Of a stretch of 50,381 nucleotides of DNA, positions 16,338 to 23,778 are shown one piece after another. The stretch spans positions 1-50,381 of the forward strand of contig JBDLTN010000001.1 in assembly GCA_039805785.1 (NCBI GenBank), in the 5' to 3' direction. Every line of letters begins with the position of its first letter. The stretch's first letter is position 1. This stretch comes from Pseudomonadota bacterium. Its GTDB lineage: Bacteria; Pseudomonadota; Gammaproteobacteria; Diplorickettsiales; Diplorickettsiaceae. Under the pieces are notes generated by a model that was given only the letters and a program-made list of their open reading frames with translations, was not told where the DNA came from and did no database searches. A program made the translations under genes and the position numbers.

Positions 16338-16910
16338 ATGAATATTTTTTACGCGGTTAAAGATAATAATATCAAAGCAGTCAAAAGATACATAGCCGAT
16401 GATGGAGATGTTAATGCTCAAGATAATTATGGCGCTACCGTTTTGAAGATTGCAGTACACTATAACTATACAGGTATAGCTCAATTACTGATAAAAGCTG
16501 GCGCTGATGTTAATGCTAAAGATAATTTTTGGAATACCTTTTTAATATTGGCAACTACAAAGGGACAAACCGAAATAGTTCAACTACTTATCAATGCAGG
16601 CGCTGATGTACATGCTACAGATAATTACGGGGCTACCCCTTTAATATGGGCTGCCCGAAAGGGTAATACAGATATAGCCCAACTACTTATTGATGCTGGC
16701 GCCGACGTTAATGCTAAAGATAGTGGCGGGGATACCCCTTTAATAGGGGCGGCTATAAGAGGATATGCAGAAACAGTTCAATTACTCATCAATGAAGGTG
16801 CTGACATTAATGCTACAGATCAGGATGGGGATACTGCTTTAATATTGGCAACTATAAAGGGACAAACCGAAATAGTTCAATTACTTAAAAAACATGGAGA
16901 TAGAGAATGA
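16338..16910 (+). CDS. Ankyrin repeat protein 5 (N-cap plus 5 repeats)
   Basis: Regular 33-aa repeats with QLLI.AGADVNA.D framework. Confidence 0.97.
   Translation: MNIFYAVKDNNIKAVKRYIADDGDVNAQDNYGATVLKIAVHYNYTGIAQLLIKAGADVNAKDNFWNTFLILATTKGQTEIVQLLINAGADVHATDNYGATPLIWAARKGNTDIAQLLIDAGADVNAKDSGGDTPLIGAAIRGYAETVQLLINEGADINATDQDGDTALILATIKGQTEIVQLLKKHGDRE
16817..16880 (+). repeat. 64-bp direct repeat, copy 1
   Basis: 63/64 identical to 23278-23341. Confidence 0.92.
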
Positions 16911-17578
16911 ACATTTTTGATGCAGTGCTTAAAAACGATATCGGAGCAGTTAAACAATATATTGCGGATGGCGCTGATATTAATACTAAAACTAATAGTG
17001 ACAATACAGGTTTAATATTGGCGGCCTATGAAGGTTACACAGATATAGTTCAACTACTTATTGATGCTGGCGCTGACGTTAATGCTAAAAATAATAACGG
17101 TAATACTGCTTTAATCTCGACGGTCTATGAAGGTTACAAAGATATAACCCACCTACTCATCAATGCAGGGGCAGATGTTAATGCTATAGGTAATGAGGGC
17201 TATACAGCTTTGCATTGGGCTGCTCGAAAGGGTCATACCGATATAGTTCAACTACTCATAAATGCAGGTGCAGATATTAATGCTAAAGATAGTAATGGAA
17301 ATACTCCTTTTATGTGGGTTGCCCACAATGGGTATACAAATATAGTGCAACTACTTATCGATGCAGGCGCTGACGTCAATAATAAAAATGAAGACGGGGA
17401 TACCGCTTTAATATTGACGGCATATAGAGGACATACAGAAACAGTTCAATTACTTATCGATGCAGGCGCTGACGTCAATAATAAAAATGAATTTGACAGC
17501 ACTGCTTTAATATGGGCGGCTAAAAAAGATTTCCCAGATATAGTTCAACTTCTTAAAGAACATGGAGCTAGAGAATGA
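16907..17578 (+). CDS. Ankyrin repeat protein 6 (N-cap plus 6 repeats)
   Basis: Regular repeats; 41-bp identical stretches at 17352-17392 and 17451-17491. Confidence 0.97.
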   Translation: MNIFDAVLKNDIGAVKQYIADGADINTKTNSDNTGLILAAYEGYTDIVQLLIDAGADVNAKNNNGNTALISTVYEGYKDITHLLINAGADVNAIGNEGYTALHWAARKGHTDIVQLLINAGADINAKDSNGNTPFMWVAHNGYTNIVQLLIDAGADVNNKNEDGDTALILTAYRGHTETVQLLIDAGADVNNKNEFDSTALIWAAKKDFPDIVQLLKEHGARE

Positions 17579-18099
17579 ACATTTTTGATGCAGTGCTTAA
17601 GAATGATATCGAAGCAGTTAAACAATATATTGCGGATAGCGCCGATATTAATGCTAAAAATAATAAGGGCAATACAGCTTTAATATTGGCTGCCTATGAG
17701 GGTTACGCAGATATAGTTCAACTACTTATCAATGCTAATGCTGACGTTAATGCTAAAAATAATAACGGTAGCACTGCTTTAATATTGGCTGTCAGTGAAG
17801 GGAACAAAAATATAGTTCAACTACTTATCAATGGCAATGCTGATCTTAATGCTTACAATAAATTTGGTAGCAATGCTTTAATATTAGCGACTTATAACCA
17901 CTGTACAGAAACAGTGCTGCAACTACTTATTAATGCTAAGGCTGACGTCAATGCTAAAAATAAAGACGGGTATACTGCTCTAGATAAAACTTTCTTAAAT
18001 GGCCAGTTGGAAATCGCTCAAATGCTTATCGACGCTGGAGCCGATTTTCATGAAACAAACTTAGCTGAATACATGAAAAAAAATGGAGTCATACAATGA
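17575..18099 (+). CDS. Ankyrin repeat protein 7 (N-cap plus 4 repeats)
   Basis: N-terminus almost identical to that of the previous gene. Confidence 0.97.
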   Translation: MNIFDAVLKNDIEAVKQYIADSADINAKNNKGNTALILAAYEGYADIVQLLINANADVNAKNNNGSTALILAVSEGNKNIVQLLINGNADLNAYNKFGSNALILATYNHCTETVLQLLINAKADVNAKNKDGYTALDKTFLNGQLEIAQMLIDAGADFHETNLAEYMKKNGVIQ

Positions 18100-18707
18100 A
18101 TTTAATGAGCGATTCAATCAAACATATCGCGGTAGCTTTAAGCAAAGCTCAATCTAAAATACCTATTGTAAAAAAAAATACTCAGGGTCACGGATATAAA
18201 TATGCAAACATTGCCGAAATTTTACTTAGTATAAGTGAGCCTTTACGAGAAGCCGAATTAACTATGACTCAGTTGGGTTCTTTTAATGAAAAAGGCGAAC
18301 CGATTTTAGTAACTCTTCTTATGCATAGTAGCGGTGAATGGCTAAACTCCGTTCTTTTATTAAAATCTCAAACATCCGCACGCACCAATGAAATGCAAGC
18401 TTTAGGTTCAGGATTTACTTATTTAAGAAGGTATGCCATGAGCGCGATGTTTGGTATAGCTCAAGAAGATGATGACGGAGAAAAAGCCTCTCCTAATCCT
18501 CAAACTAAAGATAATAAGCCTAAGCCTGCATCAAATCATGATGAGAATAATTTTGCATCGACTTGGGTTAAACGTTTAGAAAAATTATGTGAAGACCACG
18601 GAATAGATGTGAAAGAATTTGCAAATACTCATAATGTAAGGTCAAAAGATATAGAAACTGTTAAATATGCAGTAGAACATTTTGACTCATTGCGGAATAA
18701 ACCGTAA
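18096..18707 (+). CDS. erf: ERF-family single-strand annealing protein
   Basis: ALSKAQ, YKYA, LMHSSGEW, QALGSGFTYLRRYA, EDDDG. Confidence 0.95.
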   Translation: MNLMSDSIKHIAVALSKAQSKIPIVKKNTQGHGYKYANIAEILLSISEPLREAELTMTQLGSFNEKGEPILVTLLMHSSGEWLNSVLLLKSQTSARTNEMQALGSGFTYLRRYAMSAMFGIAQEDDDGEKASPNPQTKDNKPKPASNHDENNFASTWVKRLEKLCEDHGIDVKEFANTHNVRSKDIETVKYAVEHFDSLRNKP

Positions 18708-22696: not shown

Positions 22697-22717
22697 TTAA
22701 CTTAAAAATAAATAGGA

Positions 22718-23371
22718 ATGAATATTTTTGATGCAGCTAAAAATAATGATGTAGAAGCAATTGAAAAAGGGGTTAATTCTGTTAATAATAACAAACAAAT
22801 TGCTTTAATATGGGCTGCATATAGCGGTTATACAGATATAGTTCAATTGCTTATCAATGCTGGTGCTGATATAAATGCTACAGATGGATTTGGAAATTAT
22901 GCTTTAATCCAAGCGGCTAATTTCGGAAATGCAGAAACAGTTCAATTTCTCCTTAATGCTGGAGCTGATATTAACGCTAAGGATAATTACCATAATACCG
23001 CATTGATATGGGCTGCTCATAAAGGTTACACAGATATAGCCCAACTACTCATCAATGCAGGTGCTGATGTTAATGCTAAAGATAATTTGGGCAATACTGC
23101 TTTAATATGGGCTACTCACAAGGGACATACAGATATAGTTCAATTGCTCATCAATGCTAATGCTGACGTTAATGCTAAAGATCAAGAGGGAGATACTCCG
23201 TTAATATGGGCTGCTACAAATGGACATACAGATATAGTTCAACTACTTATCAATGCAGGTGGTGATGTTAATGCTAAAGATCAGGATGGGGATACTGCTT
23301 TAATATGGGCAACTATAAAGGGACAAACCGAAATAGTTCAACTTCTTAAAGAACATGGAGCTAGAAAATGA
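22718..23371 (+). CDS. Ankyrin repeat protein 11 (short N-cap plus 6 repeats)
   Basis: Same framework as ankyrins 5-7. Confidence 0.97.
   Translation: MNIFDAAKNNDVEAIEKGVNSVNNNKQIALIWAAYSGYTDIVQLLINAGADINATDGFGNYALIQAANFGNAETVQFLLNAGADINAKDNYHNTALIWAAHKGYTDIAQLLINAGADVNAKDNLGNTALIWATHKGHTDIVQLLINANADVNAKDQEGDTPLIWAATNGHTDIVQLLINAGGDVNAKDQDGDTALIWATIKGQTEIVQLLKEHGARK
23278..23341 (+). repeat. 64-bp direct repeat, copy 2
   Basis: 63/64 identical to 16817-16880; 23333-23365 is also identical to 17540-17572. Confidence 0.92.
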
Positions 23372-23778
23372 ATATTTTTGATGCAATTGAAGATAAGGAC
23401 ATTGAATTTGTTAAACAATACATCGCTGCTGATAATGATATTAATGTCGTAGATGAAGACGGCGCTAGCTGTCTTCTATATTCAATAAGATTTAATTGTA
23501 AAAAAATAGCTAAATTACTTCTTGAAGCTGGCATAAATATTGATATAAAAGATAAATATGGCAAAAATGCTTTGTATTATGCCAAATTCTTTGATAATAA
23601 AGATATTGTAGAGTTACTTACACCTAAATCTTTACCAAAAGTAAATACCGCCGAAGAACTGCGTAAGAAACAAATCGAAAAACTTGGAAAACTTATGTCT
23701 AAATCTTCAAATTTGGACTTTACTACAAAAGTAATACATGGATATCTGGAATTAATTGAAATACTCAAGAATCAATAA
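23368..23778 (+). CDS. Ankyrin repeat protein 12 with non-ankyrin tail
   Basis: MNIFDAI N-cap; DKYGKNALYYA. Confidence 0.9.
   Translation: MNIFDAIEDKDIEFVKQYIAADNDINVVDEDGASCLLYSIRFNCKKIAKLLLEAGINIDIKDKYGKNALYYAKFFDNKDIVELLTPKSLPKVNTAEELRKKQIEKLGKLMSKSSNLDFTTKVIHGYLELIEILKNQ

What the first reader, a model, noticed from the sequence alone, without database searches (positions are those of the whole stretch)
16338..23778. DARPin-like ankyrin library with mosaic modules and an embedded ERF recombinase
Seen: four genes (16338, 16907, 17575, 22718) hold 21 repeats of about 99 bp. They share a near-constant framework (IVQLLI[ND]AGADVNAK), with variation concentrated in the hairpin and first helix (DxxGxTALIxAxxxG). 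The last repeat of 22718 is a mosaic: 23278-23341 matches 16817-16880 (63/64) and 23333-23365 matches 17540-17572 (33/33), switching inside the shared ATAGTTCAA. Near-identical blocks also recur 99 and 297 bp apart. An ERF gene is ATGA-coupled to the third ankyrin. Known: these variable positions form the ankyrin binding face, and ERF proteins anneal short homologies. Inference: a phage system that shuffles binding modules by recombination to make new protein binders, without reverse transcriptase.
Basis: partly seen in the sequence, partly recalled or inferred. Interest (0 to 1): 0.9.

Follow-up and report, generated by a model that had tools for sequence, protein, structure and literature searches.

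The report
Strain-shuffled phage ankyrin binder genes
A 50-kb freshwater phage carries four genes built from interchangeable 33-residue ankyrin repeats whose order and make-up differ even between strains about 99% identical elsewhere, so recombination likely keeps producing new protein binders, probably helped by the phage's general-purpose ERF recombinase rather than by a dedicated machine; what they bind is unknown.

Summary
In detail: 21 ankyrin repeats in four genes, the mosaic last repeat (63/64 and 33/33; triplet test p=3e-4) and an ATGA-coupled erf. The window is a complete circular podophage with 13 ankyrin genes, binned with a Dot/Icm-bearing gammaproteobacterium (likely host, unproven). 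Repeats do not cluster by gene. The strongest new evidence is from two independent metagenomes. Strains 1.3% and 2-5% diverged in the backbone carry these genes deleted, reordered, fused across repeats or replaced; in one, ERF ends in an ankyrin remnant. Against a dedicated system: erf is a core gene of the lineage, and two near-complete relatives have erf but no ankyrin. Its coupling to gene C is lost in the closest strain. No exonuclease partner was found. The source sample shows one arrangement (contigs only). The variable positions are the generic ankyrin ones, their dN/dS is 0.85, and shared framework tracts are no longer than chance. Verdict: a real, fast recombination-driven repeat repertoire that works like fungal HNWD/ANK and Wolbachia ANK shuffling; ERF's role is inferred. 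The scan noted similar phage ankyrin panels on other DNA.

The parts
16338..16910 (+). Ankyrin gene A: N-cap, repeats A1-A4, C-cap repeat A5 (190 aa)
16907..17578 (+). Ankyrin gene B: N-cap, B1-B5, C-cap B6 (223 aa); predicted regular ankyrin solenoid, TM 0.95 to a DARPin
17575..18099 (+). Ankyrin gene C: N-cap, C1-C4 (174 aa); start and first repeat are a recent paralogue of gene B (32- and 31-bp exact tracts 668 bp apart)
18096..18707 (+). ERF single-strand annealing protein (203 aa), ATGA-coupled to gene C here; core gene of the lineage
18749..19144 (+). Divergent ankyrin gene F; at another place or replaced in strain X3
19154..20386 (-). Two divergent ankyrin genes (19154-19783, 19784-20386), collinear in strains X3 and X4
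21602..22696 (+). Likely replication initiator (HTH_36-type); separates the two library clusters
   Evidence: (phrog_428, E=2.5e-4)
22718..23371 (+). Ankyrin gene D: short N-cap, D1-D5, C-cap D6 (217 aa)
23278..23365 (+). Mosaic last repeat D6: 5' part like A5, 3' part like B6, switching in the shared framework motif
23368..23778 (+). Divergent ankyrin gene E, ATGA-coupled to D
16250..16310 (+). Upstream element related to 11467-11530; each precedes an ankyrin cluster (promoter-like, function untested)
11568..14131 (+). Second cluster of four divergent short ankyrin genes (11568, 11875, 12377, 13787)
24598..25188 (+). Thirteenth ankyrin gene (196 aa)
1..50381 (.). Complete circular podophage-like genome: 203-bp terminal overlap, portal, terminase, HTVC023P-like capsid, endolysin; no integrase or RT found

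Best explanation
The four genes are a phage family of ankyrin-repeat proteins predicted to be binders; their repeats and gene ends are rearranged between closely related strains, most likely by homology-guided recombination that the phage's general-purpose ERF annealing protein probably catalyses. Mechanism: every repeat shares a 99-bp register and a conserved second helix, and the genes share start and C-cap sequences (shown). A crossover or short conversion between any two repeats therefore stays in frame and yields a foldable solenoid with a new row of surface residues (in-frame hybrid seen in strain X3; folding inferred). Crossovers at shared gene ends delete, duplicate or reorder whole genes (seen in X3 and X4). 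ERF needs no special site: it is the lineage's ordinary recombinase, the ankyrin genes have accumulated around it in the early region, and the repeats are its most abundant substrates (inferred). The products lack signal peptides and effector domains (read from sequence) and most likely bind and block proteins of the infected bacterium early in infection; turnover would be kept by an arms race (inferred; no target known).
For: Repeats do not group by gene: 9 label changes against 9.6 shuffled; nearest neighbour in the same gene for 3.5 of 21 against 4.6 by chance; identity 0.684 within and 0.672 between genes. PHI p=0.0075, 0.001 and 0.012 on internal repeats. D6 triplet p=3e-4. A2, A5 and D6 share 95-98% over variable codons 8-21. 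Strain X3 (65 substitutions in 4974 backbone bases) has six contig-supported rearrangements in or at the ends of ankyrin genes against one elsewhere (binomial p=0.005), including an in-frame A5-to-C3/C4 hybrid. Strain X4 lacks A, B and most of C between the promoter and erf on one contig, and its ERF ends in an ankyrin fragment (P0122). An Erf/Exo pair recombined 78%-identical DNA as well as Red (PMC3945230, passages); 18% of repeat pairs here are at least 75% identical. erf without ankyrins occurs in G102 (complete) and G104 (92%). Framework dN/dS is 0.29. Model pLDDT 94.5, TM 0.95 to DARPin 6moj.
Against: No YqaJ-type exonuclease in the phage or G000, although the nearest outside orthologues pair erf with an exonuclease-like gene (family recalled). 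No test separates ERF from host RecA (present) or from replication slippage. PHI is not significant on the 69 bases shared by all 21 repeats (p=0.15-0.18). Framework run lengths fit a no-recombination null. dN/dS at variable codons is 0.85, compatible with relaxed selection. The source sample's contigs show one arrangement. Strain arrangements rest on short-read unitigs, and the linking of some records is my inference. Host and targets are unproven.
Confidence: 0.62

Rival explanations
1. A dedicated, ERF-driven diversification system: the phage keeps erf inside the ankyrin operon so that new binders arise continuously within each population, an RT-free counterpart of a diversity-generating retroelement.
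For: erf is flanked by ankyrin genes in all three strains. 4 of 9 full-length orthologues have ankyrin genes within about 2.5 kb, against 0 of 231 other ERF loci (Fisher p about 1e-6, overstated because the phages are kin and many control loci are short or repeated). In complete phage G106 the only ankyrin gene lies two genes upstream of erf. Short contigs over gene B have 1.3-2 times the flanking depth in X1 and X2.
Against: 5 of 9 orthologue loci have no ankyrin, including G102, G104 and G109 searched whole. Neighbouring ankyrins in G103 and G106-G108 are one to three divergent genes, not module panels. Coupling to gene C is not kept in X3. No new joint inside the ankyrin genes in X1 or X2. 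Repeats are not homogenised (synonymous difference 49%). erf itself suffers linker deletions and 3' fusions. Depth varies from 11.8 to 29.9 among longer contigs, so the gene-B excess is not evidence.
Confidence: 0.15
2. Same shuffling, but the ankyrins are exported through the host bacterium's Dot/Icm system and act on the eukaryotic cell that houses the bacterium, as with Ankyphage and phage WO ankyrins.
For: G000 encodes IcmK/DotH (E=1e-91). The closest outside ERF orthologues are in phages sharing genes with Megaira phage MAnkyphage. ANKp of a sponge phage dampened macrophage responses (10.1101/608950, passages). Dot/Icm substrates need no N-terminal signal peptide (recalled).
Against: The host link is binning only: no DNA match between C1 and the other contigs, and no capsid match in 30 genomes of the family. 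The genes lie among replication and recombination genes and carry no effector domain. Ankyphage ANKs have signal peptides; these do not.
Confidence: 0.3
3. Neutral churn: repeated DNA is simply unstable under slippage and RecA, and the arrangements are tolerated by-products with no selection for new specificities.
For: dN/dS at variable codons is below 1 (0.85). Of 11 listed X3 differences in B, C and D, 5 are synonymous and only one replacement is at a hairpin position. Deletion scars and remnants occur in X3 and X4. The variability pattern is generic.
Against: All 13 ankyrin genes are intact and take 13% of a 50-kb genome. The framework is under purifying selection (0.29). The X3 hybrid stays in frame. 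All three strains keep several library-type genes.
Confidence: 0.18
4. The mosaics are assembly artefacts of short repeats.
For: Unitigs of X1 and X2 break at the 31-41-bp shared tracts, and no listed piece spans the region.
Against: X1 and X2 contigs match the window piece by piece with one substitution; X2 record 15 runs into D6 to 23337. The X3 and X4 joints lie inside single contigs with 121-255 letters on the shorter side and carry new letters not present in the window. P0122 is an independently called protein.
Confidence: 0.05

Closest known systems
Podospora HNWD WD40 repeats and high-internal-conservation ANK/TPR repeats of fungal NLRs (PMC1805685, PMC4986451; passages)
   Same: Repeat units exchanged within and between loci, repeat-number polymorphism between isolates, variation on the concave face, no dedicated enzyme needed.
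   Different: Here a phage, free-standing small proteins with no NOD or effector domain, far less homogenised repeats (58% amino-acid identity against their threshold of 85%), positive selection not shown, and a phage recombinase inside the array.
Wolbachia and phage WO ankyrin genes (PMC3563639; passages)
   Same: Repeat gain, loss and shuffling by homologous and illegitimate recombination at short direct repeats, including phage-borne genes; likely an intracellular bacterial host.
   Different: Unrelated phage lineage (HTVC023P-like capsid); several near-consensus genes share one repeat pool; gene order and content turn over at about 1% backbone divergence.
Ankyphages (10.1101/608950; passages) and Megaira phage MAnkyphage_25.80 (record OP381185; paper not seen)
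   Same: Ankyrin genes in phages of host-associated bacteria; MAnkyphage also encodes an annealing protein (Bet) with an exonuclease.
   Different: Two annotated ankyrin genes in MAnkyphage against 13 here; ANKp has a signal peptide; no module shuffling in the passages I read.
Phage Erf / Rad52-like recombinases (PMC3945230; passages)
   Same: PF04404 member; such enzymes recombine diverged DNA independently of RecA and drive phage mosaicism.
   Different: No exonuclease partner found; embedded among ankyrin genes; activity of this protein untested.
DARPins (PMC8683736, passages; PDB 6moj)
   Same: N-cap, 33-residue repeats, C-cap; conserved framework with variable surface positions; TM 0.95.
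   Different: Natural, less uniform framework; binding not shown.
Diversity-generating retroelements (recalled)
   Same: Phage-borne variation of a binding surface.
   Different: No RT and no template/variable pair; change comes by rearranging existing repeats.

Membership tests
Ankyrin repeat / DARPin-like solenoid | 33-residue helix-turn-helix repeats between caps | tested here: met
   Pfam; model pLDDT 94.5; TM 0.95 to 6moj
Ankyrin repeat / DARPin-like solenoid | Specific protein binding through the variable face | not testable with these tools
   No partner known; position numbering of the binding face is recalled, location on hairpin and inner helix per PMC4986451
ERF single-strand annealing proteins | PF04404 domain | tested here: met
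   E=6e-25, 88 bits against cut-off 25; phrog_2324
ERF single-strand annealing proteins | Adjacent exonuclease partner | tested here: not met
   No PF09588 in G000; no tblastn match to two phage exonucleases; another nuclease type is not excluded
ERF single-strand annealing proteins | Annealing and recombination activity | not testable with these tools
   Needs an assay
Fungal HNWD / HIC repeat repertoires | At least 85% internal identity over 100 aa or more | tested here: not met
   Mean 58% aa; median 69% and maximum 87% nt
Fungal HNWD / HIC repeat repertoires | Repeats exchanged within and between loci | tested here: met
Fungal HNWD / HIC repeat repertoires | Repeat number or order differs between isolates | tested here: met
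   X3 and X4 contigs
Fungal HNWD / HIC repeat repertoires | Positive selection at binding-face codons | tested here: inconclusive
   Pooled dN/dS 0.85 against 0.29 for framework; pairwise method on old paralogues, no site model
Fungal HNWD / HIC repeat repertoires | NOD (NACHT/NB-ARC) domain | tested here: not met
   Ankyrin-only proteins of 174-223 aa
Wolbachia-type recombining ANK genes | Intragenic recombination and repeat-number change at short direct repeats | tested here: met
Wolbachia-type recombining ANK genes | Carried by phage WO / Wolbachia | tested here: not met
   Capsid matches HTVC023P-like phages at about 33%; ankyrins at most 40% to WO
Ankyphage ANKp | N-terminal signal peptide | tested here: not met
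   Read from sequence, no predictor run; the first helix is the N-cap
Ankyphage ANKp | Modulates eukaryotic response | not testable with these tools
   Needs cell assays
Diversity-generating retroelement | Reverse transcriptase | tested here: not met
   No PF00078 in G000
Diversity-generating retroelement | Template/variable repeat pair differing at adenines | not tested
   Not analysed separately; self-alignment shows only ankyrin and a few other coding repeats
Shufflon / site-specific inversion system | Site-specific recombinase with inverted sites | tested here: not met
   No PF00589 on C1; no resolvase among ORFs scanned; listed self-matches are direct

The most novel reading that the evidence does not exclude
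A phage-encoded adaptive binder generator: an ERF recombinase kept inside an ankyrin operon recombines interchangeable 99-bp modules fast enough to create new natural DARPins within populations, aimed at the intracellular host bacterium or, through its Dot/Icm system, at the eukaryote around it. This would be an RT-free, phage counterpart of segmental receptor diversification.
Probability: 0.15. Interest if true: 0.88.

Novelty: new variant of a known kind. Interest (0 to 1): 0.58.

Why it matters
It gives a strain-resolved case of a phage reshuffling a protein-binding repeat pool far faster than its backbone changes, by a route that needs no reverse transcriptase. The annealing enzyme, its natural substrates (21 repeats, 56-87% identical) and natural recombinant products lie in one 7.4-kb region. 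That makes it a direct test of whether phage single-strand annealing proteins drive the evolution of modular binders, and of what phage ankyrins bind, which is open for nearly all of them. It also points to a little-known podophage lineage that likely infects intracellular bacteria.

Tried and rejected
Run-length test of shared tracts among 17 internal repeats: not above a null with row and column effects, so framework blocks were dropped as evidence. That null is fitted to the data and is conservative. PHI on the 69 bases common to all 21 repeats: not significant. Searches for close relatives with full DNA: the module pattern found nothing in viral contigs; the initiator found none; ERF alone gave only about 40% matches in viral and metagenome contigs; the capsid gave one weak match in species genomes. 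The protein search with gene D was swamped by unrelated ankyrins, at most 52% identical. Genes A-D are not in the exact-sequence collection. The terminase search gave no host names. No prophage relative among 20 genus and 30 family genomes (only 31-56-bp ankyrin-level matches). The promoter scan was at chance level. The atlas gave no family for ORF 7505. The raised depth over gene B in X1 and X2, and uncovered stretches in X3 and X4, are not used as evidence. Small indels and a 36-bp intergenic duplication in X3 were left out of the breakpoint count; counting that duplication gives 6 of 8, p about 0.014 (by hand). One search stopped on an error after printing the three dN/dS lines; the rest was rerun. 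Literature searches listed no report of recombinase-linked ankyrin shuffling in a phage; subscription papers and supplements were not searched. No complex was predicted because no candidate partner exists.
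Full report
Setting. The window is contig C1 of bin G000 and a complete circular phage: its ends overlap by 203 bp. It encodes portal, large terminase, capsid, tail fibres and endolysin. The capsid is about 33% identical to HTVC023P-like podophages. 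No integrase or reverse transcriptase lies on C1. G000 is a 1.5-Mb gammaproteobacterium with RecA and a Dot/Icm component (IcmK, E=1e-91); from recall it looks Rickettsiella-like. C1 has no DNA match to the other 147 contigs, and its tetranucleotide distance is the fourth largest of 42 large contigs. The capsid is not found in 30 genomes of the family. The host is therefore likely an intracellular bacterium, but this is unproven.

Observation. Genes A (16338), B (16907), C (17575) and D (22718) hold 5, 6, 4 and 6 repeats. The two matches quoted for the last repeat of D are exact: 63/64 and 33/33. Of 27 sites that separate A5 from B6, 26 fit one switch in D6 (p=3e-4); three sequences alone cannot say which is the recombinant. 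erf is a clear PF04404 member overlapping gene C by ATGA. The phage has 13 ankyrin genes covering 13% of the genome. Protein B folds into a regular solenoid (pLDDT 94.5) with TM 0.95 to a DARPin.

Limits of the observation. Internal repeats are 56-87% identical as DNA, median 69%, and 58% as protein; the median within 36 unrelated ankyrin proteins is 52%. Synonymous sites differ by 49%, so the pool is old and only patchily homogenised. The positions that vary are those that vary in 212 repeats from 93 unrelated proteins (rho 0.68). dN/dS is 0.85 at seven variable codons, chosen partly from recalled DARPin positions, and 0.29 in the framework. That shows a constrained scaffold but not positive selection. 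Long framework tracts such as the 41-bp B4/B5 block do not exceed a no-recombination null. The switch motif occurs in 11 of 21 repeats; it is the longest shared homology, and nothing marks it as a specific site.

Recombination within the genome. Repeats do not cluster by gene: 9 changes against 9.6 shuffled on a poorly resolved tree of 17 internal repeats (caps and C4 left out). The nearest neighbour is in the same gene for 3.5 of 21 repeats, against 4.6 expected. PHI gives p=0.0075 for 18 internal repeats, 0.001 without C4 and 0.012 on third positions, but 0.15-0.18 on the 69 bases shared by all 21. A2, A5 and D6 share 95-98% across the variable first helix while differing elsewhere.

Recombination between strains. 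20 public runs from 15 studies hold part of the region; I laid four, all as contigs. X1 and X2 are one sample, possibly the source. They match the window with one substitution (22778) and show no joint inside the ankyrin genes; contigs hide rare variants.

X3 (groundwater) differs by 65 of 4974 backbone bases yet shows six contig-supported changes. (1) The promoter region joins to only the last codons of a C-cap and then gene B (16337 to 16889). (2) The end of B runs into gene A (17598 to 16362). (3) Repeat A5 continues in frame into the C3 linker and C4 (16885 to 17931, 21 new letters). (4) About 430 extra bases ending like gene F lie between C and erf. (5) A different ankyrin start follows erf (18692 to 17572). 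(6) 272 letters left of 23815 are not gene E. One change lies elsewhere, in the ERF linker. Six of seven in 31% of the stretch gives p=0.005 (my count, small indels excluded). Linking records 18 to 19 and 20 to 21 is inferred from overlaps; on that linking D1-D5 are kept and D6 is replaced, which would make D6 the recent recombinant.

X4 (wastewater, 1.7-4.6% diverged) joins the start of A almost directly to C4 and erf on one 7126-bp contig. It places a B-type start after the initiator, and an A-like cap before 23815. The ERF called on a contig of that length ends in GHTDILQLLK, an ankyrin fragment (P0122). The two divergent ankyrin genes on the minus strand and the initiator stay collinear in both strains.

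ERF and ankyrins. Among relatives found by capsid, G102 (complete) and G104 (92%) have erf in the same early region and no ankyrin. G103 has erf with two divergent ankyrin genes nearby. G101 and G105 are partial and have neither. Of 9 full-length orthologues (33-44%), 4 have ankyrin genes within about 2.5 kb; none of 231 other ERF loci does (many of these are short and some repeat). Six of the nine lie in phages outside the lineage; the four longer ones tested share genes with Megaira phage MAnkyphage, and erf there is followed by an exonuclease-like gene. Their ankyrins are one to three divergent genes. The link is thus real but loose, and best explained by shared endosymbiont hosts and a shared early region. 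No exonuclease partner was found in this phage.

Mechanism. Shown: common register, conserved framework, mosaics, strain-level deletion, reordering and in-frame fusion, no RT. From the literature: a phage Erf/Exo pair recombined 78%-identical DNA as efficiently as Red, about 100-fold above RecA (PMC3945230, passages). Inferred: ERF, perhaps with RecA and slippage, acts on the repeats as on any homologous DNA. In-frame products display new residue rows on the hairpin and inner helix, the known binding face (PMC4986451, passages). Selection by host proteins keeps the family large. Targets are unknown; a bacterial target is my first choice because the genes are early, lack signal peptides and have no effector domain, with export to the eukaryote as the main rival.

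Comparison. It works like the Podospora HNWD and fungal ANK repertoires (PMC1805685, PMC4986451, passages) and Wolbachia ANK genes (PMC3563639, passages). It fails membership of the first (no NOD domain, identity below 85%), and it is not a DGR, a shufflon or a typical Ankyphage (10.1101/608950, passages). PMC8683736 was read in passages for DARPin design; PMC6016236 was seen only in a listing. My searches listed no paper on recombinase-linked ankyrin shuffling in a phage; closed-access papers and supplements were not seen. Earlier notes of this scan describe similar ankyrin panels in two other phages; they are unchecked, and one led me to the fungal papers.

Verdict. Real and well supported as a rapidly rearranging ankyrin repeat pool in a phage; a new variant of a known kind. 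The dedicated ERF library remains possible at about 15%. Interest 0.58.

Noticed in passing
window 11467-11530 and 16250-16310: Related upstream element before two ankyrin clusters; strains X3 and X4 also carry the second copy. Possibly a shared early promoter.
   Followed up: partly
window 18490-18530 (erf linker): The ERF linker is 26 residues shorter than in P0123, a deletion between short direct repeats; ERF C-termini differ among close strains.
   Followed up: partly
window 16903-17769: Short contigs over gene B and the start of C have 1.3-2 times the flanking depth in X1 and X2. A tandem duplication through the 31-32-bp B/C tracts would create no new 31-mers, but depth is noisy.
   Followed up: partly
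window 22778: All four laid runs read G where the window has T (Ser to Ala in the N-cap of D); possibly an assembly error or a minor allele.
   Followed up: no
window 7196-8180 (-): Three short ORFs that look like paralogues by eye; no Pfam, PHROG or atlas family.
   Followed up: partly
window 49215-49610 (-): GroES-like co-chaperonin beside the head genes.
   Followed up: no
window 6351-7148 and 15526-16170 (-): Two proteins made of tandem helix-turn-helix units.
   Followed up: no
L187-L192: Uncultured phages sharing genes with Megaira phage MAnkyphage, with erf followed by an exonuclease-like gene; three of six loci have ankyrin genes beside it.
   Followed up: partly
L173:151-663 and L178:44-523: Leucine-rich-repeat-like proteins (by eye, family recalled) in relatives G103 and G101, another repeat type in the same early region.
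   Followed up: no
P0180, P0184, P0185, P0197, P0241, P0259: Related terminases carry intein domains (PF14890).
   Followed up: no
G000:C50:658-1359: IcmK/DotH of a Dot/Icm system in the bin that holds the phage.
   Followed up: partly
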